From Eledone cirrhosa (lineage: Eukaryota): a stretch of 64,000 nt of DNA. A program made the position numbers and the translations under genes. The stretch spans positions 182,776,001 through 182,840,000 of the forward strand of contig OZ024743.1 of the NCBI GenBank assembly GCA_964016885.1. Reading direction: 5' to 3'. The notes beneath the pieces were generated by a model, which was not told the DNA's origin, made no database searches, and saw only the letters and a program-made list of their open reading frames with translations. Shown piece after piece: positions 1 through 57,459 of this stretch (positions within the stretch are counted from its first letter, which is position 1; every line of letters starts with the position of its first letter).

Positions 1-3000
1 TTTACAGCTAGATGTCCTTCCTAACATCAACCACTTTACAGTACTATTTACAGCTAGATGTCCTTCCTAACATCAACCACTTTACAGTACTATTTACAGC
101 TAGATGTCCTTCCTAACATCAACTACTTTACAGTACTATCTACAGCTAGATGTCCTCCCCAACACCAATCACTTTACAGTACTATTTACAGCTAGATGTC
201 CTTCCTAACACCAACCACATTACAGTACTATTTACAGCTAGATGTCCTTCCTAACACCAACCACTTTACAGTACTATTTACAGCTAGATGTCCTCCCCAA
301 CACCAACCACTTTACAGTACTATTTACAGCTAGATGTCCTTCCTAACACCAACCACTTTACAGTACTATTTACAGCTAGATGTCCTTCCTAACACCAACC
401 ACTTTACAGTACTATCTACAGCTAGATGTTCTTCCTAACATCAACCACTTTACAGTACTATCTACAGCTAGATGTCCTCCCCAACACCAACTACTTTACA
501 GTACTATCTACAGCTAGATGTCCTCCCTAACACCAACCACTTTACAGTACTATCTACAGCTAGATGTCCTTCCCAACACCAACCACTTTACAGTACTATC
601 TACAGCTAGATGTCCTTCCTAACATCAACCACATTACAGTACTATCTACAGCTAGATGTCCTTCCTAACATCAACTACTTTACAGTACTATCTACAGCTA
701 GATGTCCTTCCTAACACCAACACTTTACAGTACTATCTACAGCTAGATGTCCTTCCTAACATCAACCACATTACAGTACTATCTACAGCTAGATGTCCTC
801 CCTAACACCAACCACTTTACAGTACTATCTACAGCTAGATGTCCTTCCTAACATCAACTACTTTACAGTACTATCTACAGCTAGATGTCCTTCCTAACAT
901 CAACTACTTTACAGTACTATCTACAGCTAGATGTCCTTCCCAACACCAACCACTTTGCAGTACTATTTACAGCTAGATGTCCTTCCTGACATCAACCACT
1001 TTACAGTACTATTTACAGCTAGATGTCCTCCCTAACACCAACCACTTTACAGTACTATTTACAGCTAGATGTCCTTCCCAACACCAACCACTTTACAGTA
1101 CTATCTACAGCTAGATGTCCTTCCTAACATCAACCACATTACAGTACTATCTACAGCTAGATGTCCTTCCTAACATCAACTACTTTACAGTACTATCTAC
1201 AGCTAGATGTCCTTCCCAACACCAACCACTTTACAGTACTATTTACAGCTAGATGTCCTTCCTGACATCAACCACTTTACAGTACTATTTACAGCTAGAT
1301 GTCCTTCCTAACACCAACCACTTTCCAGTACTATCTACAGCTAGATGTCCTCCCTAACACCAACCACTTTACAGTACTATCTACAGCTAGATGTCCTCCC
1401 TAACATCAACCACTTTACAGTACTATTTACAGCTAGATGTCCTCCCTAACATCAACCACTTTACAGAACTATTTACAGCTAGATGTCCTTCCTAACATCA
1501 ACCACTTTACAGTACTATCTACAGCTAGATGTCCTTCCTAACACCAACTACTTTACAGTACTATCTACAGCTAGATGTCCTCCCTAACATCAACCACTTT
1601 ACAGTACTATTTACAGCTAGATGTCCTTCCTAACACCAACTACTTTACAGTACTATCTACAGCTAGATGTCCTTCCTAACACCAACCACATTACAATACT
1701 ATCTACAGCTAGATGTTCTTCCTAACATCAACCACTTTACAGTACTATCTACAGCTAGATGTCCTCCATAACACCAACCACATTACAGTACTATCTACAG
1801 CTAGATGTCCTCCCTAACATCAACCACATTACAGTACTATCTACAGCTAGATGTCCTTCCTAACACCAACCACTTTACAGTACTATTTACAGCTAGATGT
1901 CCTTCCTAACACCAACTACTTTACAGTACTATCTACAGCTAGATGTCCTTCCTGACATCAACCACTTTACAGTATTATTTACAGCTAGATGTCCTTCCTA
2001 ACACCAACCACTTTACAGTACTATCTACAGCTAGATGTCCTTCCTAACATCAACCACTTTACAGTACTATCTACAGCTAGATGTCCTTCCTAACACCAAC
2101 CACTTTACAGTACTATTTACAGCTAGATGTCCTTCCTAACATCAACCACATTACAGTACTATCTACAGCTAGATGTCCTTCCTGACATCAACCACTTTAC
2201 AGTACTATTTACAGCTAGATGTCCTTCCTAACATCAACCACATTACAGTACTATCTACAGCTAGATGTCCTTCCTGACATCAACCACTTTACAGTACTAT
2301 TTACAGCTAGATGTCCTTCCTAACACCAACCACATTACAGTACTATCTACAGCTAGATGTCCTTCCTAACATCAACTACTTTACAGTACTATCTACAGCT
2401 AGATGTCCTTCCTAACACCAACACTTTACAGTACTATCTACAGCTAGATGTCCTTCCTAACATCAACCACATTACAGTACTATCTACAGCTAGATGTCCT
2501 CCCTAACACCAACCACTTTACAGTACTATCTACAGCTAGATGTCCTTCCTAACATCAACTACTTTACAGTACTATCTACAGCTAGATGTCCTTCCTAACA
2601 TCAACTACTTTACAGTACTATCTACAGCTAGATGTCCTTCCTAACATCAACTACTTTACAGTACTATCTACAGCTAGATGTCCTTCCCAACACCAACCAC
2701 TTTACAGTACTATTTACAGCTAGATGTCCTTCCTGACATCAACCACTTTACAGTACTATTTACAGCTAGATGTCCTCCCTAACACCAACCACTTTACAGT
2801 ACTATTTACAGCTAGATGTCCTTCCCAACACCAACCACTTTACAGTACTATCTACAGCTAGATGTCCTTCCTAACATCAACCACATTACAGTACTATCTA
2901 CAGCTAGATGTCCTTCCTAACATCAACTACTTTACAGTACTATCTACAGCTAGATGTCCTTCCCAACACCAACCACTTTACAGTACTATTTACAGCTAGA

Positions 3001-6000
3001 TGTCCTTCCTGACATCAACCACTTTACAGTACTATTTACAGCTAGATGTCCTTCCTAACACCAACCACATTACAGTACTATCTACAGCTAGATGTCCTTC
3101 CTTACACCAACACTTTACAGTACTATCTACAGCTAGATGTCCTTCCTAACATCAACCACATTACAGTACTATCTACAGCTAGATGTCCTTCCTAACACCA
3201 ACCACTTTACAGTACTATTTACAGCTAGATGTCCTTCCTAACATCAACCACTTTACAGTACTATTTACAGCTAGATGTCCTTCCTAACATCAACCACTTT
3301 ACAGTACTATTTACAGCTAGATGTCCTTCCTAACATCAACTACTTTACAGTACTATCTACAGCTAGATGTCCTCCCCAACACCAATCACTTTACAGTACT
3401 ATTTACAGCTAGATGTCCTTCCTAACACCAACCACATTACAGTACTATTTACAGCTAGATGTCCTTCCTAACACCAACCACTTTACAGTACTATTTACAG
3501 CTAGATGTCCTCCCCAACACCAACCACTTTACAGTACTATTTACAGCTAGATGTCCTTCCTAACACCAACCACTTTACAGTACTATTTACAGCTAGATGT
3601 CCTTCCTGACATCAACCACTTTACAGTACTATCTACAGCTAGATGTCCTTCCTAACACCAACCACTTTACAGTACTATTTACAGCTAGATGTCCTTCCTG
3701 ACATCAACCACTTTACAGTACTATTTACAGCTAGATGTCCTTCCTAACACCAACCACATTACAGTACTATCTACAGCTAGATGTCCTTCCTGACACCAAC
3801 CACTTTACAGTACTATTTACAGCTAGATGTCCTTCCTAACATCAACTACTTTACAGTACTATTTACAGCTAGATGTCCTCCCTAACACCAACCACTTTAC
3901 AGTACTATCTACAGCTAGATGTCCTTCCTAACACCAACCACTTTACAGTACTATCTACAGCTAGATGTCCTCCCTAACACCAACCACTTTACAGTACTAT
4001 CTACAGCTAGATGTCCTTCCTAACACCAACCACTTTACAGTACTATTTACAGCTAGATGTCCTTCCTAACACCAACCACTTTACAGTACTATCTACAGCT
4101 AGATGTCCTCCCTAACATCAACCACTTTACAGTACTATCTACAGCTAGATGTCCTTCCTAACATCAACCACTTTACAGTACTATTTACAGCTAGACGTCC
4201 TTCCTAACATCAACCACATTACAGTACTATCTACAGCTAGATGTCCTCCCTAACACCAACCACATTACAGTACTATCTACAGCAAGATGTCCTTCCTAAC
4301 ATCAACCACTTTACAGTACTATTTACAGCTAGATGTCCTTCCTAACATCAACCACTTTACAGTAATATCTACAGCTAGATGTCCTCCCTAACACCAACCA
4401 CTTTACAGTACTATTTACAGCTAGATGTCCTCCATAACACCAACCACATTACAGTACTATCTACAGCTAGATGTCCTTCCTAACACCAACCACTTTACAG
4501 TACTATCTACAGCTAGATGTCCTTCCTAACACCAACCACTTTACAGTACTATCTACAGCTAGATGTCCTTCCTAACACCAACCACTTTACAGTACTATTT
4601 ACAGCTAGATGTCCTCCATAACACCAACTACTTTACAGTACTATTTACAGCTAGATGTCCTTCCTGACATCAACCACTTTACAGTACTATTTACAGCTAG
4701 ATGTCCTCCCTAACATCAACCACTTTACAGTACTATTTACAGCTAGATGTCCTCCCTAACATCAACCACATTACAGTACTATCTACAGCTAGATGTCCTT
4801 CCTGACATCAACCACTTTACAGTACTATTTACAGCTAGATGTCCTTCCTAACACCAACCACATTACAGTACTATCTACAGCTAGATGTCCTTCCTAACAT
4901 CAACTACTTTACAGTACTATCTACAGCTAGATGTTCTTCCTAACACCAACCACATTACAGTACTATTTACAGCTAGATGTCCTTCCTAACACCAACCACA
5001 TTACAGTACTATCTACAGCTAGATGTTCTTCCTAACACCAACCACTTTACAGTACTATCTACAGCTAGATGTCCTCCCTAACACCAACCACTTTACAGTA
5101 CTATTTACAGCTAGATGTCCTTCCTGACATCAACCACATTACAGTACTATCTACAGCTAGATGTCCTTCCTAACACCAACCACATTACAGTACTATCTAC
5201 AGCTAGATGTTCTTCCTAACACCAACCACTTTACAGTACTATTTACAGCTAGATGTCCCTCCTGACATCAACCACATTACAGTACTATCTACAGCTAGAT
5301 GTCCTTCCTAACATCAACCACTTTACAGTACTATCTACAGCTAGATGTCCTTCCTAACACCAACCACTTTACAGTACTATCTACAGCTAGATGTCCTTCC
5401 TAACACCAACCACTTTACAGTACTATCTACAGCTAGATGTCCTTCCTAACACCAACTACTTTACAGTACTATCTACAGCTAGATGTCCTCCCTAACACCA
5501 ACCACTTTACAGTACTATCTACAGCTAGATGTCCTTCCTAACACCAACCACTTTACAGTACTATTTACAGCTAGATGTCCTTCCTAACATCAACTACTTT
5601 ACAGTACTATTTACAGCTAGATGTCCTCCCTAACACCAACCACTTTACAGTACTATTTACAGCTAGATGTCCTTCCTAACATCAACTACTTTACAGTACT
5701 ATTTACAGCTAGATGTCCTCCCTAACACCAACCACTTTACAGTACTATCTACAGCTAGATGTCCTTCCTAACATCAACTACTTTACAGTACTATTTACAG
5801 CTAGATGTCCTCCCTAACACCAACCACTTTACAGTACTATTTACAGCTAGATGTCCTTCCTAACACCAACCACTTTACAGTACTATCTACAGCTAGATGT
5901 CCTTCCTAACATCAACCACTTTACAGTACTATCTACAGCTTGATGTCCTCCCTAACACCAACCACTTTACAGTACTATCTACAGCTAGATGTCCTTCCTA

Positions 6001-6344
6001 ACATCAACCACTTTACAGTACTATCTACAGCTAGATGTCCTTCCTAACATCAACCACTTTACAGTACTATTTACAGCTAGATGTCCTCCCTAACACCAAC
6101 CACTTTACAGTACTATCTACAGCTAGATGTCCTCCCTAACACCAACCACTTTACAGTACTATCTACAGCTAGATGTCCTTCCTAACATCAACCACTTTAC
6201 AGTACTATTTACAGCTAGATGTCCTCCCTAACACCAACCACTTTACAGTACTATCTACAGCTAGATGTCCTCCCTAACACCAACCACTTTACAGTACTAT
6301 CTACAGCTAGATGTTCTTCCTGACATCAACCACTTTACAGTACT
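1..6344. repeat. 46-bp tandem satellite array (~138 units, truncated by window start)
   Basis: Unit TTTACAGCTAGATGTCCTTCCTAACAYCAACCACTTTACAGTACTA repeated head-to-tail with point variants and no spacers. Confidence 0.99.
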
Positions 6345-9787: not shown

Positions 9788-10499
9788 ACTGGTGAAAATA
9801 AAAGTCAACATTACAAATCTAAAAAAATATCTCCAAATTTAGGTGTCAACTATTAAATGGAAGCCATTACCATGGATTGTAATCAAATGGAACCACCAGC
9901 CTAACAAGGTCCTGATGTAGAGAGGGACTGATGTAGATATGGAGGGGGGACTGATGTAGATATGGAGGGGGGGGGGGGTGGGGGGTGATGTAAATATGGA
10001 GCTTCCAGTGTGATTGAACCCAGGACCTCATATTGCAAAGCAAACATCTTCACTATCAGGCCATGTTACATCCACATATTTACAGTAGGACTTATTTAAC
10101 ATCACTTGTTTTAGCATTGTGAGTTCAGTTGCAAATGTTTTCTTTTCTTCCTAATCATCATCATTTAATGTTCACTTTCCCTGCTAGCAAGGGTTGGATA
10201 GGTCTATATAGACCAAGTCAGTACTGAAGTGGGGCTAAGGACCTCCCAGACTGGCCATGTGTTGTCTGCATCTTGCTTACATACGGTCATACATTCTATT
10301 AAGTGCAGAGATGTCACAACTTCTCACTACTTATAAAAATTCACATAGGTTTGAAAACAATATTCCTTCTACTTGTTCTCCTCATCGATAACGAGGTCTC
10401 ATTCAGGCGTTGATTTTAGCCATAGTAACCCCAAGATCTAAGACATGGTCGACCGACCTCTCCATCTAGGACAGTGAGACATGGTCAACTGACCTCCCC

Positions 10500-10790
10500 T
10501 TACAGAATGGACTAGGTGCTTATTTGTCATGGCACCAGCACCACTACCTTACAGGATGGACTGGGTGCTTTGTTCTGTCACCAGCACTACTACCTTACAG
10601 GATGGACTGGGTGCTTTGTTCTGTCACCAGCACTACTACCTTACAGGATGGACTGGGTGCTTTGTTCTGTCACCAGCACTACTACCTTACAGGATGGACT
10701 GGGTGCTTTGTTCTGTCACCAGCACTACCACCTTACAAGATTGGGCTGGGTGCTTTTTATCATGGCACCAGTACTACCACCTTACAGTGT
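10500..10790. repeat. 46-bp minisatellite (about 5-6 units) inside an RTE/SINE-tail-type repeat
   Basis: Unit CACCAGCACTACTACCTTACAGGATGGACTGGGTGCTTTGTTCTGT. Confidence 0.9.
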
Positions 10791-10898
10791 AGGCTAAGTG
10801 AGCTTTATCCTCTTATCATCATCAGTTTTAATTTTACTGTGTGTCCACACAGCATTACTGAGCACAGCTGTGTTCCTCGAGTATCTGCAGTGTTATTA

Positions 10899-11257: not shown

Positions 11258-11559
11258 CTAATAATAATGATAATAATAATAGTAATAATAATGCTTTCTT
11301 TATTAACCACAAGGGTTAACACAAAGTAAGACATTAAGTACAATACAGGACAATACAAGACGGCACAAATGGGCATTTCTGCATGTAAAAAAAAAAAAAA
11401 AATCAGAGGATGTAACAAAAGAAGAAACAATGAAAAATTCCCCAACAAGGGGGAGACTTCCGAGGGACATCCGTGGAGAAAGCCCATTAAAAAAGCCACG
11501 GTGACTCTGACGACCAGGGCAAGTGCCCTCCCCCAGTTTTCCACCTTCAATTTATAGGC

Positions 11560-14500
11560 ACATACTCAGAGTAGGCCCATTTACACGGGCCATTCTTGCC
11601 TCTCTCACCCATCTTTCAACAAAATGTTGGGAAAAGAACCTAGACGCCTAGAGTTTCCCTAAGCACGTCGTCACTCTTCCTCTCCACTAATCCTCTATAG
11701 AACGCCAAGGTGGAGTTTCCACCGATCACATTGCCCGACTGGTCGAGGGTTGTGAGCGCCTGAATACATTCTAGTCTCCAAGCGCTCCCTCTCGGTCTTC
11801 GCTTGACCCAAGACTGCAGCTCCGTCATGGAGACGAGCTGGGGAAAGACGCGTCTAGCAAACGGCGACCATACCTGATCACTGTCGAGGAAGAGGTGGAG
11901 ATGCCATAGCCAGAGCGCGCGTCTGCACATCATCAGCCATGGCATGCCCAGCCCTCCACATAACGGGTGTTGACAGCAGATGGACCGCCTGACCATCGGA
12001 GCGTGTCCCTTCCAGCGCAGTCAGGCAAGGCTTAGGACAAGGCACGACGGTCAGGCGGGAGTAGATGACGGACGCGATGTACGCATTTGCCACCTCCGCT
12101 CGATCTTTCAGGGATAGCTTCCTCTCTGCCCATTTCTGGGTGAGAGAAGCCATCCTGCTCGTCACCTCGTCCCAGTTTTTGTCCGTCTGGAGGTCTGGAC
12201 CAAACCAGACCCCTTGCAATTTAACCGGTCCATCCGTCCAGCGCCCGACGACGCCGTTGGACGGCATGGACCTGCCTCTCCAGGTGCCGAGCTGCAGGCC
12301 CACCGACTTTTCCTGGTTAATCATTGCTCCTGTCACCGCTTCGTATTCTTAGTGTAGTGCCGATCACCTCGATGTGTTTGGCGTTCGACACCACTACGGT
12401 GACATCGTCCACATATGCTGACACGGATCTTCCGCATCCTAGTTCGCGCGGGATGCCCCTCAACGTCTCCAGTTTGTGCAGTAATGGCTCGAGAGTCAAT
12501 ACGTACAAGAGGGACATCCCTGGCGGACCTAGTGCATGATGTTCAACGGTTCCAAAAGGTGACCGTTCACTCTCACCACAGAGCAGATGTCGCTGTGCAT
12601 GGCAGCGATCCAGCCTCTGAAGACGGGCCCAAAGCCAGCCACCCTCAGGACTGCCACCAGATAATGATGGTCGACCCTATCAAAAGCTTTCGACTGATCT
12701 AAATTGATCAAGGACCCACCCATGCCAGGTTCCCTAGCTACCCTCTCCACGATGTATCGCATGAGGTGGAGGTTGTCATGGATGGATCTGTCTGGAATGG
12801 CGCATGTCAGCGCCTCTCCCACCAAACCAACGACAAGCGCCAACCTCTTTGCTAGCACCTTGGCCAAAATCTTGAACTCTGTGTTTAGCAGAGTTATGGG
12901 CCTGAAATTATCTATGTTATCCCCCTTGTTCGGATCCTTTCTCAGCAGCACCACCACTCCTCGGCTCACAGAGCTGGGAATTCTCCCGTTCTGTTGCCAG
13001 TCGCAGTAGACGTCCGCCAAGAGGCGTCCGAACAAGTCTGGCATCTGTACGTAAAGTTCATAGGGCAGACCATCCAAACCAGGCGATTTACTCCTTGTGC
13101 AGCCAGTCATTGCCTCCCGCACTTCAGCGGCTGTTATCGGCTTTTCACAACACTCCGCCTCAGTGGCCGAGAGCCGCGGCAGTCCGTCGAGGTAGACACT
13201 AAAGTCCATCCCTCGATCCGGCCCGCCCCTGCCCCCGAACAGCTGAGCGAAGTGTCGCTGAAAAGCTTCATACATTTGCCCGGGATCGAGTAGCATGCGC
13301 CCGTCGTGGTCCACCAAAGACAGGATCGTGGCTTCGTTGCCACGACGCACCTCCACCACTTGGGCCCATTGAACGGCTTTCATCCCCTCGTGTCTGAGAG
13401 CACACACCCTAGCTCTGACAATGCAGCCTTCATGCTTTGCATTGAAGAATTGGTCAAGGGCCTATTTCGCCACAAGTACGTCGGTCGCGATGCCTTTACT
13501 AAGCACCTCGTCTAATTTTCTAACTAGTTCTCCCTCTGCTTTACTGCTAAAGCCTTACTAAACCTAATGGACGCTATTTTAATCGCTCTTTTCAGAGCAA
13601 ACCACCATTTGTTGTTGACGATGGCCCCCTCAACACCTGCTTAACTAATTCGGTCTCTGTAGGTCTTGCGCACTGTTAATGACGCGTTTAGCTTCCAGTA
13701 GCCGGGTCCCTGTCTATGAAGCCTATCTAAGTCAACCTCACAGATCACAAATTTGTGGTCCATGTAGTCGACTATTTTGAAATGTGGACAGCCTATGCTA
13801 GACCTATCTATTTCCGACATGTCGATATGTAACACAAACTTCAAAAAACCCGACAACCACCTGATCACCTATAGATCAGGGGAGCATTCTCGTCAGATAG
13901 ATTTTATCCTCATCAGAGGACGTGACAGATGGACGGTCGTAAACACAACAGCCTACTCTAGTGAGGAATGTACCAGCTTAGTTGTCAGAGAACTTCAAAC
14001 ATGTGATGCATATGAAGGATGACAGCTGCATAAAAAGGTGCAGAGCACTAGAAGTCAGTGGAAACCACGGAGTGGGGAGACCCAAGAAGACTTGGGATGA
14101 GGTGATAAAAGCCGACCTTACCCAATTACACCTCTCAAAGGCGTTGACACACGACCGTGACCTCTGGCGTCACGCAGTAATACAGAAGACCCGACCTCCC
14201 ATGGGTACAAGCTGAAGCATATAGACAATATGCCCCACACCCTCCCACTGCGAGGTGGTCATGGAGGTGCCACAGCAAAATAGCACCCAGCCCACACTGT
14301 AAAGTGGACGTGCAGGCGCCACGGAAAAAAGCACCCAGCACTCACTGTAAATGAGGTTGGTGTTAGGAAGGGCATCCAGCTGTAGAAATCAAGCCAGAAT
14401 CAGTTCCTGTATGAGCAAGGCATGGTCAGCCGACCAGACACTGCCTACAACAGAACAACCCGCCTAACCCATGCTAGCATGGAAGAACGGACGTAAAACG

Positions 14501-15116
14501 GTGATGATGATGATAATGACCCGATGCGGTTTGTCCTTGTCCACATTGGCACATTCGGGAAATCCAGACAGTACCTGTCAGACAGTTGAAACCGTCTGAG
14601 CAGGTTAGCGAGGCTTTTACACCCTCCTCCCCTATCCGCTAATCCCACACAGTCCCAGCATGCATCTAAGATCCCGTTCCAGTCGCCCACTAACACTAAA
14701 GAGCGGGACGTTCCAAGAAAGGTCTCCAGACGCCGGAAGAAATCAGGCCGCCCTGCTCCTGTCGGGGCATAGGCGGCCACTAGCCTGAAAGCTTGCCCGT
14801 CTCCGCTGGTCACGTCCAGCACCACCAACTTATCTTCTGGGTCCAGGAAGATGGCCCATATGGAGAGATCCAAACCTCTCCGAAAAAACACAGCAACTCC
14901 TACCCCCCCCCTACCACCCGATCCAGAATGGCTGGGAGATGCGTACATATCATAGCTGCCAAAGATCGGTGCAAAGGCTCGTGCTCCGAAGATTCTGGTC
15001 TCGCTGTTGGCCACCACATCTATGTTTAGTGACCTGAGATCATTGAGCAGGTGACCCTGCTTCCATGACGACCCCAGGCCACGCGCATTTATGCTGCCTA
15101 TTCTGAGTGAGGTCAT
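11560..15116 (-). pseudogene. ORF2 (APE-RT) of Tx1 copy A, disrupted
   Basis: APE motifs SETR, AYAP, GDWN, DH..V, GYWKLN; RT ORFs 12529-13407, 12317-12517, 11878-12336. Confidence 0.9.
13816..14515 (+). mobile_element. Internally deleted RTE LINE with 3' UTR and (GAT)n tail, nested antisense in Tx1 A
   Basis: NTNFKKPDNHLITYRSG..QIDFIL (endonuclease C-end) joined to HVMHMKDD..GRPKKTWDEVIKADL (RTE C-terminus); Tx1 resumes at ATGACCCGATGCGG as in copy B. Confidence 0.85.
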
Positions 15117-15150
15117 GTTGAAATGGAGTGGAAAAGATGGGAAAGACCAC

Positions 15151-17078
15151 TTACCTTACTTCTCGTAGAGGAAGGATGGTTTGTCCATCCTTTTCACTGC
15201 TTGTGGCCTCCTCAGGAAGGATGTCCTTATAAATCCTCCTGGAGAGTGTTTGTCGGAAGTCTCCAATGTCCTTGGGGAACTTTTGTTTTAGTGTCGTGTA
15301 CGTTTTCTGTGTGATGCGAGTGATTTGTATGTGTGGAGGTGGTGTGAACTTTTGGGGTGTTGTGTAGTCTTTTTCTGTGATGCTGGTGTTGTGTTGCATG
15401 TAGTGTAATAATTGGTTGTTGTTCAAATTTAATGCTGTGTAGTGTGTATCGTTTTGGTTGTTTTGTTTTGTTTGCATTTGTTGTGGGTTTGTTTGTTTCG
15501 CTTTTTGGTGATTTTTGTCGTGTTGGTGATGGTGGTTGTGGGGTTAATGATGGTGATGATGTTGGTGTTTGTGGTGATGGGGCTGGTGATGTTGGTGGTG
15601 GCATAGCTGTTGGTTTGCTTATTTGTTTCCCCCTGCATTTTGTTTTTGGAGGGCGAAGGATGAGGATTATTTTCTTTTTGGGGTTCTTTTTTTTTTTTTT
15701 TTTCCCGATACCATTTCCCACTCCTTCTCATCGTCACAATCTGTCTCCAGTTGGGATAGGTTGGGGAATGGAAAATCCTCCACAGGCGTTGGTTTTGGTT
15801 GTGGCATGGTGGATGGTAGAGGCGCTGGTGCTAATTCTGGCGCGGTGGGTGGTGTTGGTTTTGCTACTGTTGCTGGGGTTGTTGCTGCTACAGTTGTTGC
15901 TGCCATATCTGCTGCTGGTGGTGTTGATGGTTGAGTCACTGGGGTCGGTAGGAGAGGTGGCCTCAACTCTTTAGCCTGAGGGCAGAAAGCCTTTAGGTGA
16001 GTTCCTTCACCACAAACGACACACCTAGGCCTTCTATCCTCAACGATTACGGTGAGGTGGCTGCCGTCAGTGAGGTCTATCACCTCTGGAATTTCCTCAA
16101 TGTTTTTTTGGTCCGCTTGGATCAGGAGCTCCATCTCAGATCCGGGCCAGTTCTCCTGCTTTTCTTTTGTTACCTCAATTATTTTCGTGTTGGCCTCGAT
16201 GCCAGCGAGGACGGCAGCCATTAGCCAGGGAAATTTGATGGCCGACGGAACGTGGGTCACCCTGATCTTCACGAGTCTCTGACCACAATAGCTTGGGACG
16301 AGTGTAAACTCGTCACTTCTTAATGGGGCCATGGAGTGCTCTCTGGCTTCCTGTGGGGTTCCAAAGAACACGTCCACGGTTCCATATTTCTGCCCATGTC
16401 TGATATGGTTTCTTTTCGACCACACATTTCCCAAAGCTTTTTGTATCTGGGACTCGGATGCCCATTCCACTCAGCGTGATTTTGTGTTTATCGTCCAATA
16501 TGACACGGTGCATAGGCGCCGATGCTCCATTTTATTAGATGGGGGGGGGGGGTGAGGCTGACCCTGTACCCATCTTTTTTTACCATTCGCTTGGCTTCAT
16601 TCAATTCGTCCTGGCTTACCTCGATCGTTTCGCTTTTCTTGGCTGCTTTGGCAAACGACACATTTTGTTTTGCACTGGTGTTGATGTTGTTGTTATTCTC
16701 ATTGTTGTTGTTGCTGTTTTTGTTATTGTTATTTTTAGTTTCAGTTGTGGTGCTGGTAGTGTCAGTGGTGTTCGGCGTGGAAGAGTCGATTCTGGGTGAA
16801 TCCATTTCGATGTCACGAGATAATAATTTATTTTTTGTTTCTGTTGTCGATGTGGTAGTGGTGGTGGTGGTGGTATCAGTGGTGTCGGTTGTTCTTTTTG
16901 ACATTGTGGTGGTGGCGGCTTTAACACCTGCAGTTATTGGTAATGGCGGGAAATCCAAATCTAAATAATTGAGACAGCTTTTAATTATATTTTCAGTGTT
17001 GGCAACCGTGGCAAGGTTTACAATGGTGGTGGTGGTGGGAGATGTTAGTCTGTTAATAACAAGAGATTTGTCGTCCAT
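15151..17078 (-). pseudogene. ORF1 of Tx1 copy A (frameshifted at homopolymer runs)
   Basis: Consecutive ORF pieces 16488-17192, 15667-16470 and 15151-15477 are colinear with ORF1 of copy B. Confidence 0.8.
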
Positions 17079-17291
17079 GTCTTTTTTCAAAAAATATTTT
17101 GTTTGATAAATAAAAAGTTTAAATTTTGGGCTCAAGGCTCCAATATTATTGAGGGTCCTTTTCAGAAAGCAATAATTTTCCATAACTGGCAATTTGAAAC
17201 AACTGAAAACAACAAACCTTTGTGGAGCTCACGATAATACGATTTCCTACGTAGGTCGCCAATAAAAATAATAATAATAATAATAATAATA

Positions 17292-20200
17292 GTTTCTTTA
17301 TTGGCCTCAAGGGGTAACATGAAGAAAAACATTAGAGACAGCACAGGACGATACAAAGTGAGCTTTGGTCGTGTAAACAGGTTATAACAAAATCAGGCTA
17401 GAAATCAAAAACATTCAAACAACAAAAATTCCCCAAGAAGGGGAAAACCTCCGAGGGTCACTCGTGGTGAAAACCACACAAGACCACGGCCACCCTGACC
17501 ACCAGGGCAAGCGCCCTCTCTTACTTTTTCCACTCCTCATACTCAGAGCGGGCCCGTTCACTCGGACCAGACTCACCACTTTCACCCACGTTTCAACAAA
17601 TTTACTAGAAGACAGCACTTGCCTCTCCACCCTGATTTTACTCTTCAAGTGAAACTTGAAAAAGTTAATCAGGGATTGGCCGGAGGCCAGTACGTACAGG
17701 AGGGACGAGAGGGGGCAACCCTGGCGGACCGAGCACATGATGTTGAAAGGTTGCGACAGGTGACCATTTTTCCTCACAATCGAGCAGATGTCGCTGTGCA
17801 TCGCAGCGATCCAGCCCCTAAAAACGGGCCCGAAGTCAGCAGCCTCGACGACCTCAGCCAGGGTCTGATGGTCGACCCTATCAAATGCTTTAGATTGATC
17901 CAAGTTGATCAGGGCTCCACCCGTGCCAGGTTCCTTAACCACCCTCTCTATGATGTATTGCATGAGATGGAGGTTGTCGTGGACGGATCTGTCTGGAATG
18001 GCGCATGTCTGCGCCCCTCCCACCAGATCACCGACGGCAAGCACCAATCTCTTTGCTAACACCTTGGCCAAAATCTTAAACTCTGCGTTTAACAGAGTTA
18101 TGGGCCTGAAGATGTCTATAACGTCTCCCTTGTTCGGGTCTTTTCTCAGCAGTGCCACCGCTCCCCGGCTCACAAGACTGGGAATGCTCTCGTTCTACTG
18201 CCAGTTGCAGTAGACATCTGCCAAGTCTGGCATATACGCATAAAGCTCGTAGGGCAGACCATCCAAACCTGGTGATTTACCCCTTGTGCAGTCAGACATC
18301 GCTTCCCGTATTTCACCTGCTGTTATTGACTTTTTGCAGCACTGCGCTGCAGTCGTCGAGAGCCGTTGCAGTCCATCGAGGTATGCACCGAAGTCCATAC
18401 TCCGATCCAGCTCGCTGCTGCTCCCGAACAATTGAGCAAAGTGCTGTTGAAAAGCCGCACACATCTGCTCAGGTTCGAGCAACATACACCCGTTTTCATC
18501 AAGCAAAGACCGAATTGTGGACTTGTTGCCATGTCGCGCCTCCACCACCCGGGCCCATTGAACAGCTTTCGTCCCCTCGTGTCTCAGAGCACGCGCTCTA
18601 GCACTGACAACGCAGCCTTCATGCTTTGTGTTGAAGAATTGGTTGAGTGCCAATCTCACCGCAAGCACGTCGGTTGCGATGCCTGTCCTAAACACCTCTT
18701 CTAGCTTTCTAACTAACTCTCCCTCTACTCTATTTTCCTCTATCACTACTCCTTTGCTAAACCTTATAGATTCTACTCTAATAGCCCTTTTCAGGGTAAA
18801 CCACCACCTGTTGTTGACGATCGCACCCGTCAATGCATGCTTAACTAATTCGCTAATCCGGCCTCTGTAAGCTTTGCACGCCGGGAACGACGCGTTCAGC
18901 GTCTAGTAGCCGGGCCCTTGACTATGGAGTCTAAGTCAACTTCACAGATCACAAATTTGTGGTCCGTGTAATCAACTACTTTAAATTGTGGACAACCTAC
19001 ACTAGCCTTATCTGTTTCCCTACAGAATACCCTATCTAAATACAATATGGATGACCCGATGCGGTTTGCCCATGTCCACATTGGCACATTCGGATAATCC
19101 AGTCTATACCTGTCAGACAGTTCAAAACGTCTAAGCAGGTTGTTGAGGCCTTTACACCCTCCTGCCCTGTCTACTAGCCCCACATAATCCCAGCGTGCTT
19201 CTAAGATACCGTTCCAGTCGCCCACTTACACTAAAGAGCGGCACATTACAAGAAAGGTCTCTAGACCTGTTGGGGCATAGACGGCTACTAGCCTGAAAGC
19301 ATTGCCTTCGCTGCAATCACGTCCAGCACCACCAACTTACCTTCTGGGTCCAGGAAGATGGCCCGAATGGCGAGATCCAAGTGTCTCCGAAAAAGCACGG
19401 CAACACCTCCCCCCGATCCTCAACAGCTGGGAGATGCGTATACATCGTAGCTGCCGAAGATCGATGTGAAAGCTCGTGCTTCGGAGATTCTGGTCTCACT
19501 GATGGCCACCACATCTATGTTTAGTGACCCGAGTTCGTTGAGCAGGTGACCCTGCTTCCAAGATGAACCCAGGCCATGTACATTTATACTGCCTGTTCTA
19601 AGTACGGCCATGTTAGATGAGAAACAGGGTAAGTGAGAAAGGATCACTTACCTTGCTCGTGCGGTGAAGGGACAGTAGAACCATCCCTTTGGCTTGTCAT
19701 GGGTGTTTCCAAGAGGATGTCGGTGTATATCCTCTTGGTAACCGACCCTCTGAAGTCTCCAATTGCATTGGGGAATTTTTCTTTTCATAGTTTGTAATGT
19801 TCTATTTTGATTTCAATTATGCTTATGTTTTTTCGGGAGAGTTCTTGGTGTTGGTGGAGCGTAGTAGTTTTTTTCTGTGATGTCTGTGTGCTGCTTCATA
19901 TATTGTAAGAGTTCTTTATTTGCTATGTTTATGGCTGTGTACTTTTTGGGGGGAGGGGTGATTTTGTTGCTGTTTTCTTGTTGCTGTTGGGTGTGTGTGT
20001 TTTGTTGTGTTTGCGATGTTGGTGTTATTGGTGATGCTGGTGGTGGTGGTGATACTTGTGGTGGTGATACTTGTGGTGGTGATGGTGATGGTGTTGCTGC
20101 AAGTCTCCTTGCAGCCTTTACCCCTCTTTGTTTGCCTTCGCTTTTGGACGGTGAAGCTAAGGGGTTTTTTCTTTTTTTTTTTTTTTTGTGGCAGACCGTT

Positions 20201-21571
20201 TGCCACTTCCCTCCCACCTTATACTCCATGTCGGATTCCGTGGCACCTGGGAGGGGTATGAGCTCCACTGCTGTTATTGGTGGTAGTGGAGCCCACTCCG
20301 GCAATTTTGCCGCCAGTGTAGCTACTGCGACTGTTGGTGTTGCTGCCACTGCTTCTTTAGTTATCCATGGCCTTGATATGGGTGCTATAGACGTTGCCCT
20401 CCTACTCATCATGGAAGGGTCTTCAGCCTCTGTTGCCTGCCCTGCTCTTGGTATCAACGGATCAGGCGTCGGAAGGAGGGGGCCACGTTCTTGGCTGTCT
20501 TCTGCGGGCAGAAGGCCCTGAGGTGACACTTCTGCCCACAGAGATAGCACTTTGGCCGCCTTCCTTCCATGCTTATAGGGAGTTGGAGTTCGAGGTCACT
20601 TTGACCCTCACAATTTTCTGCCCGCAGTAGGAGGGCACCAAGACCTATCTCCTCACTCTTTAGGGGTTCCAAATAGTACTTTTTGCCTCGGAAGATGTGG
20701 CTTTGCGCGCCCAGACGAACCCCAAGGCCTTTTGGATTTGAGCCTCCGTGGCTCTCTCCACCCGATGTGACATCTTGCTTACGGTGCGGTAAGTCACCGT
20801 GCGCAGCTGCTGGTCTTTGAAGAAATCGGGTGGAGTTTCAGGGAAACTCTATTGTCGTTTCTCGATACCATGGCCCTTGCGACTGCCATCTCCTCCTCCG
20901 TGACTAGCACTGTCTCTATTTTTCGAGCCACACCTGTGAAAGAAGTGGGCCCTTTTTCAGCGGCACCATTATTGCTGCCGCTACTGGTCTTGTTGTTGGT
21001 GCTGTTGCTGTTGCTACAAACGGTGTTGTTGGTGTTGTTGCTGTTATCACTGTTGTAGTTGGTTGTGTTTTTGGTGCCACCGTTGTTTTTTTTTTCGGTG
21101 CAATTTGTATTGTTGCTGTTGGTGTTGTCGTTTATTTTCTTGTTAGTGGTGTTAATATCGTTGTTGCATTTGTTGTCATTTTTTTCTGTTGTCTGTATTT
21201 TGGTTGACGCTGTTCTTGTAGTTGGTGTGGTAATTTTTTTTAAATTCATGTTCTCAGTGTTGTTGTCTTTATTCACATTGTTTGTGGTGGTGTTTGTTGT
21301 ATGAATTTCTGTAACCCTCCTCTCAACTTTTATGCCATTGTCACACGACAGCAGACATATTGTTGGGGGGCATAGCTCAGCCATGTTTTTTTTTTATTTT
21401 TAAAAGTAAAATGTTCAAATATTAATCAAATATTTGGGTCAAAAGGCCCAAATATTATACTTTCCCCTTCACAGGGCAAAATCCAAGGGCTTATATCCCT
21501 TACACAACAAATAATTATAACGGTAAATAAAGCGACTTACTGGGAGCAAGCAAAAAGCGTCCGAACAGACC
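17292..21571 (-). mobile_element. Tx1/L1-clade LINE copy B (5'-intact, large internal RT deletion near 17680)
   Basis: CYLCGQKCHLRAFC knuckle; ORF2 start MAVLRTGSINVHGL at 19611; VRQGCPLS jumps directly to the C-terminal segment; 3' AATAAAGAAACT(ATT)n. Confidence 0.93.
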
Positions 21572-21773
21572 AATAATAATAATAATTGTTTCTACATTTG
21601 GCACAAGGCCAGCAATTACTCAGTGTATTACTGGTACTTTATTTTATCGACCCCATCAGGATGAAAGGCAAAGTTAACCTCGGCGGGATTTGAACTCAGA
21701 ATGGAAAGGGGCGTAACTCTATGCGTCAAAGTATGGCGTCCGACCCTTTACTGATACTGCCAATCCACCGCCC
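21572..21773 (-). mobile_element. SINE family A (tRNA-like head, Meta-like core, (ATT)n tail)
   Basis: GGCGGTGGATTGGCAGTATC..GAGTTCAAATCCCGCCGAGGTTAACTTTGCCTTTCATCC..GTCGATAAAATAAAAGTACCAG..GGCCTTGTGCCAAATGTAGAAACAATTATT. Confidence 0.85.
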
Positions 21774-22325
21774 TTTATAATAATAATAATAATAATAACA
21801 ATGTGCACATACACACAGATAATAGCCCTACTGGGCACAACACACATTATGAAACACACTCTGAATACAATAGAAATAACACTGCACATACCCAAGGAAC
21901 ACAGCTGTGCTCGGTAATGCTGTGTGGGCACACAGTAAAATTAAAACTGATGATGATGATGATAAGGGGATAAAGCTCACTTAGCCCACACTGTAAGGTG
22001 CTATAATAAAAAGCACTCAGTCCATCCTGTAAGGTAGTGCTGGTGCCATGACAAAAAAGCACCCAGTCCACTCTGTAAGGTGATAGTGCTGATGCCACGA
22101 CAAAAACATCCAGTCCATCCTGTAAGGTGGTAGTGCCTGAGTTATGATAAAATGCTCTGAGTACACGCTGTAAAGTGGTTGGCATTAGGAAGGGTATCCC
22201 ACCATAGAAAGTAAGCCAACAGTGGAACATATGGACAAGATTTAGTCACCTGACAATCTAACTTCAGTATGTGGCAATCCGTCTAACCCATGCAAGCATG
22301 TAAAATAGACATTAAACTATGTTGA

Positions 22326-22371
<46 letters not shown>

Positions 22372-22589
22372 AGGGAGTGAAACGTGAAGTTACTGTAGGT
22401 TCACCCAGGTGAGCACTCGATGTTTAGGTTCACGTCAGTGGTGAGGTGTAGAGTTAGATAGAGTGTAATATAGCAAAACACGCGTCACCAATCAATAAAC
22501 GTAATGAAGGCTTAACAAATCGTCATTGTTGATGTCAGCCCTTGTGGCCAATAAAGAAATCATTATTATTATTATTATATATATATATA

Positions 22590-22720
22590 ACGGCAGTGAA
22601 TTGACAGTATCGGTAGAGGGTTGGACGCCATGCTTTGACGCATAGAGTTACGGCCCTTGCCATTCTGAGTTCAAATCCCGTCAAGATTAACTTTGCCTTC
22701 CATCCTTACGGGGTCGATAT
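22590..22720 (+). mobile_element. SINE family A, 3'-truncated
   Basis: Matches head and core of 21572-21773. Confidence 0.75.
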
Positions 22721-26229: not shown

Positions 26230-26804
26230 TAGCAATCAAAATAATGTCACAGATCCTGGAACGAAATGTTTATTCTACAATTAGGAATACGAAAAAATAA
26301 ATTTCTCCCCCTTTTTTTTTTTTTTAATTATCAACACTGTCGCTATCTACACCAAAAACGTGCCTCTAATGAAAGACATTGCTTGTAATTTTAAATAATT
26401 TTGAAAATTAGCAAAAATTTGGAGTGATTTTATAATATAATTTTCACGTTATTAAACTGGTGTCTGGAACATAACAAATATTCTTACACAAAATTTGGGG
26501 GAGGCAGCAGAAAGGATCTCTTGTTGGCTTTGGAGCAGGAAAGAGAGATGGGTAATAATTTGGTCACCACTGCTGACCCACCAGCGAGAGGGTGATGTGG
26601 TCCAGGGTCAAAATACTCAATATACGTTGGACACCGTCTGATGACATCGGCCAAGACAAGGTTTACCGAAGATGAATGAATGTGAATCAACTTCTTGAAG
26701 ATGTAATTATGCCTGATTGAGGGTTTTTAGATAAATATAAACCTTTTAAAATAAACAGTTTTGTATAATAGAACTAGTGGTTTGGTATGGAAATAAAAAA
26801 AAAG

Positions 26805-27155
26805 TTATAATAAATAATTGTTTCTACTTTTGGCACAAGGCCGGCAATTACCCAGTACATTACTGGTACTTTATTTTATCGACCCCGTAAGGATGAAAGG
26901 CAAAATTAACCTCGGCGGGATTTGAACTTAGACCGTAAAGGGACGTAACTACGCTGAAAAGTTATAATAAATAATTGTTTCTACTTTTGGCACAAGGCCA
27001 GCAATTTCCTAGTGTATTACTGGTACTTTATTTTATCGATCCCGTAAGGATGAAAGGCAAAGTTAACCTCGGCGGGATTTGAACTCAGACCGTAAAGGGA
27101 CGTAACTCTATGCTTCAAAGCATGGTGTCCGACTCTCTACCGATACTGCCAATCC
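26805..27155 (-). mobile_element. Tandemly duplicated SINE family A
   Basis: Two consecutive copies, each starting AAAAGTTATAATAAATAATTGTTTCTACTTTTGGCAC. Confidence 0.85.
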
Positions 27156-40247: not shown

Positions 40248-42087
40248 GTGACACAATCATAATTCCAGCAGTCTTTTACACTGAAAATAATGACGGGAAA
40301 CAATATTAATATCTTCTTTGGTTAAATTAAATCATAAATGACAAATTAAACAAAAAAAGTATCAGTATTCTTAAAAACAATAGAAGAACAAACTAACAAC
40401 TTTGAAATATTTAACTTTGTTATTTCATTTTTCCACACTAGCATGGGTTAGATGAGTTGTCCCATTGTGAGACGAGTCAGATCAGATAACCGTGACTTAC
40501 TCATACATAACCGATTTGGGCTTGGTTTCTACAGCTGGATGCCTTTCCTAACACCAACCACATTTACAGTGAGTACTGGGTGCTTTTTGTTGTGACACCA
40601 AACCAATCAACTGACAGATTGGACTGGGTGCTTTTTGTCGTGTCACCATTATGATCACTTTACAGAGTGGACTGGGCGCATTTTGTCATGTCACCAATCC
40701 GACTACTTTACAGGGTGGACTGTGAGCTTTTGTGTATATTAACGGTGGTACCCTGAGAAAAGAAATTCAGTAGACGCTGTGAAGTGGTTGGTGTCAGGAA
40801 AGAAACAATGCCAAAATGGAATGTAAGAGCAAGACACAGTGACCTGACTGGACTGTTTAGCCAGAGAATTGTCATGACCCAACATTGTCATCTAACTGAC
40901 CTGTTTTGCCAGAGAATGTGATGACCCAACAACCATGGAAGATAGATGTAAAACAGTGATGATGATGATTAGCAATAAAACATCACTTTACAATGATCAT
41001 CCTAGATATTAAAATCATCAATTTCGGACTAAACACAGCAACAATCAGTCAGCTTCTTTCTACTTTTTGTCTTAATAAAATGCAGCAAATGCACTCTTTA
41101 TGGTGGTTATGCTGGTGCCATGGTAAAATTAACCTAGTACACAATAAAATATTCCCAATACACACTGTAAAGTAGTTGGCAGTAAGAAGGGTATCTAGCA
41201 GTAGAAACCATGGAAAAATGAGAATGGTGTGGTCCTCAGATGTATCTAGTATTAGACTATGACAACCTGTCATAGAAATTAAGCCAAAATACAGTTCCGT
41301 ATGAGCAAGACATGGTCACCTGACCTGACTTGTCTCAATATGACATGTCTAAGCGATGAACAAGTGGAAAATGGACATTAAATTATGAAGTATGTATTTG
41401 GTAGTGAACAGAATAATATATTAGTAAAGTATAATTGTCAAAAGGAGTAAAAAAAAAAACAGTTTGTCACTTGGGTAAACATTTTAAAAAATCTATATAA
41501 AAGCTATAATTTGAATCTAGCACATTTGTCCTTCATGAGAAGTACCAAGATATATTTGTTGTTATTAAAAGGGTAGACAACTTCCAGTTTGTCAAAATGA
41601 ATATAGGTATGTACATATGGACTGAGTGGGGCATGTGCACGAAAACAAACAAATGTGTATATATATATACAAGAAGATCAGAAAAACAAGTCCTACCAGA
41701 CGACACATCTGCTCCAATTAGCAAACTGAATTGAAATTAAGACACGTGGTTTAGTAGTTAGGGATGGTCTCTTCTAGAAGTTAAGGCCGTGAAATTGGTT
41801 GTAGACAGCGTGTTGTGTCAACATGAATTATACCTGTAATTCAAAGGACTAAGCTTTTGTCACACACTACTATATCATGCTGAATCTCCCTGAGAAATAC
41901 GTTAAGGGTACTCGTGTCAGTGAAATGCTCAAACACTTGCTCATTAATATCGGGAACAGGTTGTTGTGTTGGCCAACTCGCACACTCATCGTCACAACTG
42001 ATGGACGTCCAACACATATTAAACAGCTGTTTATCGACACACATTCATTCTATTATAGTCTATTATATCCGTCTCTAATATCGGTAT

Positions 42088-56700: not shown

Positions 56701-57066
56701 CTCCAGATTTGTCGGGAAAGGTGAAGGGAGCAAGGTTTCATCAATTGATACAACACAAATTAAATTTGCATCTTCATCAACTTTGGGTTCTATATCTTGA
56801 TCATCAGTGAGGGTGAAATAAAGACCTCCAACTGGTAAAGTACTCTTCCTCACCTCAGGACGTCGGAAAGCAATAAAAAAATATTCACAATCATTTTCTA
56901 GAAACAGAATTGATGAAGCAGTTTTTTTATCGACATTTAAATGAAGTGGGTGTTTCGTTAAGAAAGATTCATCTACGCCCTCAACATTGTTTTGCTGTTG
57001 TGCTTTATCCTCCCGATTGATAAATTCACCGAGAAACGATGATTGATACATATTTTTTATAATCAT
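53731..57066 (-). CDS. PEX6: Peroxisomal AAA+ ATPase PEX6, single coding exon, 1111 aa
   Basis: D1 GPSGVGKT with degenerate Walker B; PKIPKVKWEDIGGL; D2 GPPGTGKTLIAKAVATECSLNF, GPELMNKYVGQSEEN, FFDELDSLAPNRGRNGDTGGVMDRIVSQLLAELDG; TGADFYAL. Confidence 0.96.
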   Translation of the reverse strand: MIIKNMYQSSFLGEFINREDKAQQQNNVEGVDESFLTKHPLHLNVDKKTASSILFLENDCEYFFIAFRRPEVRKSTLPVGGLYFTLTDDQDIEPKVDEDANLICVVSIDETLLPSPFPTNLELDEGSEVDEKSSIINTKVYLYCTNQFLQHYGWEPSQNIVFRRIIPFPLEKVILSVKDLDTYKAIKNLDFHHLLLQVCKHGVLVRTNDLFLALWSPGKVSSSVPNYYQHIVVTECCPFRQGLLTAKTEIFTVHEETNNSNPHKPRMDCLSKDSLFFSSFCPWSKKPKDNCLDAKNIMVPAKIVGDKRLRDVMIQTDSDQEFDPNYIICMSRKLMLANKLFDSSIVEVYCIGNKVELFRERDDVFDNVPESSPKRTTIVRSKMAMVKCLGRRYDKSRFAFISPILLFNIQVHPQHLPTTSVAIVIKKLQNVNGKQTNDSFLDNLKLWNVVIAKKVIFSLIKTPGSEDLPSKELDKYFEYPRLMEKGDIFCIKIKNNNFSQTDLSFEKSSIFYLKVENIKPSLEHGDRHLVHPKFTTRTLKENYTAHSFVPYLLNDSPPYWCQSRPAGLEFYVENLLKLILPFLNDTLDAKVQEILSPTILISGPSGVGKTTVIDAVARTLCLQVIKVSCQHLSSMSPFAMIEKIKNIVRSAKDYAPCILVLKNLEFLGRSEKHSIDMKIGTFFVDILQQAKRYALDYPMLIVGTTENAQELQPNIPEGFLHHMKMQVPSEADRAIMFTNLTEDIYFSGDVSSTYISRRTAGYVLGDMVDLVKRAQAEAYKRVTDFLGVKDKKWQEMHNDLCTSGVVIQHSDFENALDSLQSSHADELGTPKIPKVKWEDIGGLNEVKQEILDTIQLPLLRPELLAAGLRRSGILLHGPPGTGKTLIAKAVATECSLNFFSVKGPELMNKYVGQSEENVRKVFQQARDAVPCVIFFDELDSLAPNRGRNGDTGGVMDRIVSQLLAELDGLHKSHNVFVIGATNRVDLLDPALLRPGRFDKVLYMGVCKNKDFQLKILEAVTRKFILGNFSLKSIVDKCDMDLTGADFYALASDAWMNATKKLIQKLEVGRDVDTSKVIVEETDFLEALANLVPSVSESQHEHYKNLQNTYAT

Positions 57067-57459
57067 ATCCTTGATTAATTAAAATATTAAAATATGTGAA
57101 ACCAAAGAAACATTCAAATCTTGCCTTTTCTCACCTTTAGATCCATTTCTAGTTAAGATACAACATAATAAAAATGAATGTTTTCCATCAGTATATGAAT
57201 GACGCAAAAGGAGAGTTACCTCCTCTTAGTTAGGTGGTTTTGTCGGTAGAGGGCATCATATGTGGCCAATATAATATTTTCGTAATCTTTCAAATTCATA
57301 TTTTATTTACTCTTTACTATTTTTTCGACGTTAGGAAACTTTCATTATATTTCTCTTTATTCTTCCAAAATTATTTACAAAAGCTTGTTTCGTTAACAGG
57401 TGAATTCGATGGAAATTTTAGTCGGATTTTTTTTTGTAGTTGGAATAGGAGCATAGTCC

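What the first reader, a model, noticed from the sequence alone, without database searches (positions are those of the whole stretch)
11259..21800. Self-regenerating (ATT)n landing pad: SINE, Tx1-B and Tx1-A chained head-to-tail
Seen: every junction in the 10.5 kb block is an (ATT)n run (21777-21800, 21572-21586, 17261-17291, 11259-11292). Both LINEs start ATT|GG, end AATAAAGAAA..(ATT)n and share orientation. B sits in the tail of a SINE and A sits in the tail of B. Known: the Tx1 clade includes target-specific families such as the microsatellite-specific Kibi and Koshi. Inference: an (ATT)n-specific Tx1 lineage that uses SINE tails as targets and recreates its target at each insertion.
Basis: partly seen in the sequence, partly recalled or inferred. 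Interest (0 to 1): 0.72.

Follow-up and report, generated by a model that had tools for sequence, protein, structure and literature searches.

The report
ATT-seeking LINEs with passenger SINE
Two decayed long jumping genes and a short one sit head-to-tail on ATT repeats, a landing site that this family of jumping genes uses across this probably octopus-like genome; each insertion likely doubles the repeat by copying the site itself rather than by bringing a tail, and the same enzyme likely also spreads a very abundant short element.

Summary
The chain is real (minus strand): SINE, (ATT)5, LINE-B, (ATT)10, LINE-A, (ATT)11. One correction: a 700-bp opposite-strand insert inside A has non-ATT junctions. 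The family sits on ATT genome-wide. 578 of 604 exact A heads follow ATTATT (random 0.11%), and 27 of 42 5'-truncated copies have ATTAT at the 5' junction (random 4%), so ATT is a target and not only a tail.

(1) The pad is likely renewed by target-site duplication: in 6 of 6 informative LINE duplications the 'tail' is all target. (2) SINE tails are not a special target: 2/30 hosts for A, 9/30 for B, 7/60 background. One locus shows the SINE arriving after the LINE.

The SINE (at least 150,743 copies) shares the LINE's tail motif, strand and ATTAT site, so these LINEs likely move it. An R4/Dong-like element uses the same tracts on the other strand (47/47). Full-length heads always join in register (ATT|G), which suggests target bases on the RNA.

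Tx1-clade membership could not be tested against named references. This scan already reported the system at eight or more other places in this genome.

The parts
21777..21802 (-). Outer 5' (ATT)n pad, about 8 units with one GTT
21587..21776 (-). 190-bp SINE with A- and B-box-like motifs (read by eye); ends ...CCTTGTGCCAAATGTAGAAACA; likely passenger of the LINEs
   Evidence: Rfam gave no real match
21599..21611 (-). Predicted 3' hairpin of the SINE, loop CUUGU
21572..21586 (-). (ATT)5 pad between SINE and LINE-B
17291..21571 (-). LINE-B, L1/Tx1-type, full-length head (ATT|GGTCTG), decayed, ~1.28 kb of ORF2 3' part missing
17261..17290 (-). (ATT)10 pad between B and A, one TTT variant
11293..17260 (-). 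LINE-A, L1/Tx1-type, full-length head (ATT|GGCGAC), decayed ORF1 and ORF2 (APE endonuclease about 15116-14516, RT about 13461-12320), ~490 bp missing near the 3' end
13816..14515 (+). Later insert inside A, ends (GAT)n, junctions not ATT; RTE-like by recall only (Pfam gave no hit)
11299..11319 (-). Predicted 3' hairpin of A (loop CUUGU) overlapping an AATAAA signal 6 nt before the element end
11259..11292 (-). Outer 3' (ATT)11 pad with ACT and ATC variants
22527..22719 (+). Second small chain of the same system outside the finding: 35-bp LINE 3' stub, (ATT)5, SINE piece

Best explanation
The block is a head-to-tail stack of two L1/Tx1-type LINEs and one SINE that sit in one (ATT)n tract, and it likely formed by repeated insertions, in unknown order, by an endonuclease that is predicted to nick the AAT strand at ATTAT(T). 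Shown: the strand-specific ATT context of heads, tails and truncated junctions; target duplications of 12-21 bp (LINE) and 9-25 bp (SINE) that begin at the first base after the element; several LINE subfamilies; an R2/R4-type element in the same tracts on the other strand. Inferred: (1) the freed ...AATAAT-3' end primes reverse transcription on a few AUU units at the RNA 3' end; these would come from read-through into the downstream pad, since AATAAA lies only 6 nt before the element end; (2) second-strand cleavage 10-20 bp downstream duplicates part of the tract, so every insertion leaves a pad on both sides; (3) full-length RNAs carry some AUU in front of the head, which anneals to the target and fixes the ATT|G register; (4) the LINE protein recognises a small CUUGU-loop hairpin that the SINE shares, and so moves the SINE in trans. 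The SINE accepts bare ATTAT sites; full-length LINEs are found almost only in tracts of three or more units.
For: 578 of 604 exact A heads follow ATTATT (random 0.11%). 105 of 109 distinct heads have ATTATTATT within one mismatch. Truncated copies: 27 of 42 with ATTAT within 25 nt (random 4.4%); control repeat family 0 of 19. 49 of 60 position-sampled 3' ends are followed by ATTAT, none by poly(A) (by eye). Six informative LINE duplications (L067 21, L072 19, L089 19, L117 17, L286 17, L340 12 bp) all start at the first base after the element; in L340 that first unit is the target's own ATC variant. SINE: duplication found in 23 of 30 best-hit copies, 18 of 23 with no extra tail base; 36 of 45 background copies are followed by ATTAT. 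Register: LINE heads join ATT|G in all four head types seen, while at least 9 of 22 SINE heads in pure tracts join ATTAT|. Non-ATT duplications: 6 of 43 truncated against 0 of 109 full-length junctions (p=0.0004). Tail: SINE matches a B tail better than 4995 of 5000 shuffles, the Dong-like tail not at all; stem pairs change on both sides around an invariant loop (0 of 500 shuffles). Opposite-strand element: 47 of 47 sense-strand ends followed by AAT, weak hit to R2 endonuclease domains (E 6e-4). Open 1152-residue ORF2 with APE, RT and zf-RVT in L386.
Against: 15 of 42 truncated junctions lack ATTAT; some look like later deletions, which I did not prove. No junction with a non-ATT duplication followed by an ATT leader was found in 80 long loci, so step 3 rests on register alone; long tracts plus a few fixed ATT-like bases in the head would explain the same data. 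The hairpin is weak (z -1.5 to +0.2), the window's B copy does not fold it, and the covariation control ignores relatedness. The SINE-to-tail match for the window's own A and B is modest (95 and 122 of 5000 shuffles). 5 of 23 SINE duplications have 1-6 extra bases, so a short own tail exists at least sometimes. No empty-site alleles and no enzyme assay.
Confidence: 0.8

Rival explanations
1. One reading: the LINEs aim at the ATT tails of SINEs and of each other, and each insertion writes a new (ATT)n tail from its own RNA, giving a fixed order SINE, then B, then A.
For: B heads lie behind SINE tails more often than background tracts do (22 of 59 against 7 of 60, p=0.001; the 59 include the window copy). 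LINE tails host 17 of 60 position-sampled heads. Some SINE copies carry 1-6 extra tail bases.
Against: A heads: 2 of 30 behind SINEs (p=0.71). LINE-tail hosting is not above background (17/60 against 5/29, p=0.30). 39 of 45 background SINE tails hold two units or fewer and only 23,724 of 150,743 exact tails hold three or more. 6 of 6 informative LINE duplications show no added tail. L007 shows the reverse order.
Confidence: 0.12
2. ATT is part of the element at both ends (head and tail) and expands by slippage after insertion; insertion itself is only AT-biased, and stacks arise by recombination between pads.
For: The fixed ATT|G register shows that some ATT-matching bases belong to the head. 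15 of 42 truncated junctions lack ATTAT. Head/body chimeras occur.
Against: Truncated copies have no head yet 27 of 42 still have ATTAT (random 4.4%). Duplications begin with target ATTATT. Stacks mix unrelated elements, including an opposite-strand R4-like element, with their own duplications.
Confidence: 0.05
3. The LINEs target ATT, but the SINE is moved by another element (for example the Dong-like one) and shares sites by coincidence.
For: The shared tail is only about 28 nt and the hairpin is weak. The SINE accepts shorter sites than full-length LINEs.
Against: The SINE has the LINEs' strand (ATT), the Dong-like element the other (AAT, 47 of 47); no tail similarity to it (4333 of 5000 shuffles score as high); duplication start and length match the LINEs. 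Other LINE families of the genome were not surveyed.
Confidence: 0.15

Closest known systems
Kibi (TC)n, Koshi (TTC)n and crocodilian (TTCC)n/(TTTC)n Tx1 families (PMC4494074: passages and section 15; PMC3812793: passages)
   Same: APE-type non-LTR elements that insert into one microsatellite
   Different: Target is (ATT)n, host is probably an octopod; a very abundant SINE shares site and tail; kinship to these families not tested
Dong (TAA)n of silkworm, mosquito and snail (PMC3812793: passage)
   Same: Same repeat as target
   Different: Dong is R4/RLE-type (recalled; Dong-R4 named in octopus in PMC13282606 and PMC8967140, passages). Here the APE element uses the opposite strand and coexists with a Dong-like element in the same tracts
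SINEU with Tx1-Mar of crocodilians (PMC4494074: passages and section 15)
   Same: SINE inferred to be moved by a Tx1 family from shared target preference
   Different: Target there is a Mariner element and heads are snRNA-derived; here the SINE also shares the LINE's 3' motif
Stringent L1-clade SINE/LINE pairs of maize/sorghum and Chlamydomonas (PMC3747384: passages)
   Same: Shared 3' hairpin with invariant loop and variable stem
   Different: Plants and algae, poly(A) ends, no microsatellite target
R1A of the melanogaster group (PMC2718515: passages)
   Same: Full-length copies join precisely because the RNA is proposed to carry upstream target sequence; truncated copies have ordinary duplications
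   Different: rDNA target; there rearranged junctions show the leader directly, and I found none in 80 loci

Membership tests
L1/Tx1 group of non-LTR retrotransposons | Two ORFs; ORF2 with N-terminal APE endonuclease, RT and C-terminal zinc motif | tested here: met
   Window pieces hit Exo_endo_phos and RVT_1; L386 ORF2 has Exo_endo_phos, RVT_1 and zf-RVT
L1/Tx1 group of non-LTR retrotransposons | ORF2 closer to L1 ORF2p than to other clades | tested here: met
   Homolog P0004 (46% to window A): human L1 ORF2p E 9e-63, R2 1e-27; L386 endonuclease hits L1 endonucleases first. Few clades have solved structures, so the comparison is narrow
Tx1 clade proper | RT/APE phylogeny groups it with Tx1L, Keno, Kibi, Koshi rather than L1 | not testable with these tools
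   No named Tx1 reference was returned; Repbase not available; supplement of PMC4494074 not held. The label rests on recall of domain layout
Microsatellite-specific APE retrotransposons (Kibi/Koshi type) | Copies inserted in one microsatellite, one orientation | tested here: met
   578 of 604; 105 of 109 and 27 of 42
Microsatellite-specific APE retrotransposons (Kibi/Koshi type) | Target is (TC)n, (TTC)n, (TTCC)n or (TTTC)n as in the named families | tested here: not met
   Target is (ATT)n, so it works like Kibi/Koshi but is not filed as one of them
Microsatellite-specific APE retrotransposons (Kibi/Koshi type) | Specificity set by the endonuclease | not testable with these tools
   Needs a cleavage assay
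Stringent SINE/LINE pair | Shared 3' sequence and stem-loop | tested here: met
   short (28 nt) and weak in energy
Stringent SINE/LINE pair | Same insertion signature | tested here: met
   Same strand, ATTAT start, duplication 9-25 against 12-21 bp
Stringent SINE/LINE pair | Trans-mobilisation depends on the tail | not testable with these tools
   Needs a cell assay
Dong/R4 (for the opposite-strand element, not in the window block) | RT followed by CCHC zinc motif and restriction-like endonuclease; (TAA)n target | tested here: inconclusive
   L099 frames show RT, CCHC and PD..D motifs, weak hit to R2, AAT flank 47 of 47; no named Dong sequence returned
tRNA-derived CORE SINE of octopus (OR1/OR2) | tRNA-related head and CORE domain | not tested
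   A/B boxes by eye only; Rfam no real hit; no reference sequence available; name recalled and seen in PMC4758252 and PMC4824008 passages

The most novel reading that the evidence does not exclude
A tail-less, head-less LINE lineage that borrows both ends of its RNA from the microsatellite it sits in: transcripts start in the upstream pad and end in the downstream pad, so only copies on (ATT)n stay mobile, each insertion doubles the pad, and the same enzyme drives one of the genome's dominant SINEs while an unrelated RLE element works the other strand of the same tracts. Target choice would then be enforced by RNA-DNA pairing at both ends and would explain a large share of octopod repeat architecture.
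Probability: 0.35. Interest if true: 0.7.

Novelty: new variant of a known kind. Interest (0 to 1): 0.5.

Why it matters
It adds (ATT)n to the targets of APE retrotransposons and names a likely engine for a SINE with more than 150,000 copies. The review passage read (PMC3812793) says the mechanism of microsatellite targeting is not well understood; young copies with open ORF2 frames and thousands of junctions make it testable. An APE enzyme and an RLE enzyme share one repeat on opposite strands, which gives a natural comparison. The concept itself (microsatellite-specific Tx1, SINE riding a Tx1) is known.

Tried and rejected
SINE tails as a special target: rejected for A, explained otherwise for B. 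Order of insertion from divergence: unresolved, all 3-7%. Search for leader-revealing junctions: 0 of 80 loci. ATT runs next to broken Dong-like bodies first looked like leader evidence; rejected, because a 5'-truncated opposite-strand copy inside a tract explains them. A-to-G editing of pads: GTT 13, ATC 10, CTT 9 among variant units in 5' pads, and GTT also dominates background tracts, so no sign. Expression: no RNA holder listed; contigs laid on both ends could not show starts, ends or the pad; runs coded as two other organisms hold pieces of the element. Named Tx1 references for a tree: none returned. Motifs first taken for new LINE heads (C, E, F) were reread as opposite-strand ends; only C was checked by protein. 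My script mislabelled four SINE hosts as LINE tails and wrongly dropped L067; both were corrected by hand. Rows dropped: L030 and L045 (damaged heads); 5 of 47 truncated junctions whose flank matched LINE or insert sequence; one double-counted background tract; one of 30 SINE-pad-head units had no alignment. Literature searches listed no paper on an ATT-targeting Tx1 or an octopod Tx1-SINE pair; Repbase, Dfam, Kojima and Fujiwara 2004 and most subscription journals were not searchable.

Full report
What is there. On the minus strand the block reads pad, SINE (21776-21587), (ATT)5, LINE-B (21571-17291), (ATT)10, LINE-A (17260-11293), (ATT)11. Both LINEs hold pieces of an APE endonuclease and an RT but are decayed. 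A carries a 700-bp opposite-strand insert (13816-14515) with a (GAT)n end, so not every junction is ATT. The genome is a 3.0-Gb animal assembly. The nearest named homologs are from Argonauta hians (74%) and a cuttlefish (48%), so the host is probably an octopod.

Is ATT a target? An exact 23-mer of the A head occurs 604 times, 578 times directly after ATTATT; random positions give 0.11%. Of 109 distinct A and B heads, 94 follow ATTATTATT exactly and 11 with one mismatch (two damaged heads left out). Heads could carry ATT themselves, so I tested 5'-truncated copies: 27 of 42 have ATTAT within 25 nt of the junction, against 4.4% at random and 0 of 19 for another repeat family. Fifteen do not. 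Exact 3' ends number 2006 for A and 394 for B; 49 of 60 position-sampled ends are followed by ATTAT.

How is the pad renewed? Six truncated LINE copies have duplications that include non-ATT bases (12-21 bp). In all six the duplication starts at the first base after the element, with no extra unit, and in L340 that first unit is the target's ATC variant. For the SINE, 23 of 30 best-hit copies show a duplication of 9-25 bp, 18 with no extra base and 5 with 1-6. The apparent tail is therefore mostly target. I infer a nick on the AAT strand, priming on a few AUU units, and a second cut 10-20 bp downstream, which leaves ATT on both sides. AATAAA lies 6 nt before the element end and no poly(A) follows any of 60 ends (by eye). 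From general knowledge of polyadenylation, the RNA would end inside the downstream pad; this is inference.

Are SINE tails the target? Among position-sampled heads, SINE tails host 2 of 30 A and 9 of 30 B copies and LINE tails 7 and 10 (counted by eye). Background tracts of three or more units are SINE tails in 7 of 60 (one double count removed). A is not enriched (p=0.71); B is (22 of 59 with the best-hit set, p=0.001). But 19 of 29 SINEs in front of a head also have three or more ATT units in front of them (by eye), while 39 of 45 background SINEs end in two units or fewer. In L007 the SINE's duplication includes the first bases of the B head with its private change, so that SINE came second (one case). 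The simplest reading is a shared target with any order. In the window the order is open.

The full-length junction. Four head types join as ATT|G, apart from single mutations, whereas at least 9 of 22 SINE heads in pure tracts join as ATTAT|. Non-ATT duplications occur at 6 of 43 truncated and 0 of 109 full-length junctions. This suggests that full-length cDNA ends in target-matching bases, as proposed for melanogaster-group R1A (PMC2718515, passages). I found no junction that shows such a leader directly (0 of 80 loci), so I give this step about 55%.

The SINE. Its exact 24-mer tail occurs 150,743 times. It has the LINEs' strand, site and duplication type, and about 28 nt of similar tail (5 of 5000 shuffles for a B tail; 95 and 122 for the window's A and B; 4333 for the Dong-like tail). 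A CUUGU loop is kept while stem pairs change on both sides across 11 tail types, but the fold is weak and is lost in the window's B. Mobilisation by these LINEs is likely (about 80%) and untested.

Neighbours in the tracts. Stacks are common in the 80 long loci fetched. They include an unrelated element with RT, CCHC and restriction-like motifs whose sense strand ends in AAT in 47 of 47 cases; I call it Dong-like from recall and from the (TAA)n target listed for Dong (PMC3812793, passage). An RT tree of 50 copies separates A (100/100) and B (100/98), shows B heads on A-type RT in three copies and on a third RT type in two, and holds a young A group with end branches under 1%. Two of these have an open 1152-residue ORF2.

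Known and new. Microsatellite-specific Tx1 families and a Tx1-moved SINE are known (PMC4494074, passages and section 15; supplement not held). Octopus repeat papers name L1-Tx1 and Dong-R4, and the passages found give no target (PMC13282606, PMC8967140; PMC12988792 held none of my terms). Nine searches listed no ATT-targeting Tx1; Repbase and Dfam could not be checked and may hold it. PMC3747384, PMC4758252 and PMC4824008 were seen as passages only. Tx1 membership proper is untested. The scan's earlier notes report the same LINE, SINE and Dong picture at eight or more other places in this genome; they gave me the Dong reading and the hairpin lead, which I then tested. A word search of the notes for the register and tail points found nothing.

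Verdict. A real and general system, a new variant of a known kind. The targeting claim stands; the 'own tail' and 'SINE tail target' parts are replaced by target duplication and a shared site. Interest 0.5.

Noticed in passing
window 53731-57078 (-): Single open frame of 1115 aa with two AAA domains; best solved relatives are p97/VAT, PEX6 and NVL types. A PEX1-like gene by recall; a frame this long without introns is notable.
   Followed up: partly
window 3-6344: Tandem array of about 138 copies of a 46-bp unit, 94% matches; related 46-48-bp units recur in short arrays at 10498-10787, 22008-22136 and 40563-40731.
   Followed up: no
window 10630-10897 and 21875-22136: Inverted copies (81%) of one repeat flank the block at some distance; probably two independent copies of an abundant family.
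   Followed up: no
window 26800-27155 (-): Two SINEs head-to-tail with the duplication ATTATTTATTATAACTTTT after each: SINE-only chaining at a short ATTAT site.
   Followed up: partly
L091, L371, L382 (also L100, L183, L186, L379): B-type 5' head of about 410 bp joined to an A-type body at the same point; head swapping between subfamilies.
   Followed up: partly
L096, L312, window 22527-22561: Extremely short insertions (about 10-35 bp of SINE or LINE 3' end), the one in L096 with its own duplication.
   Followed up: no
L060, L064, L091, L227, L245, L246: Another repeat ending ...GCACTGTACACAATAATTTC before ATT often hosts these elements; not identified.
   Followed up: no
L285, L303, L362: Tracts that switch from (AAT)n to (ATT)n, where elements of both polarities meet.
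   Followed up: no
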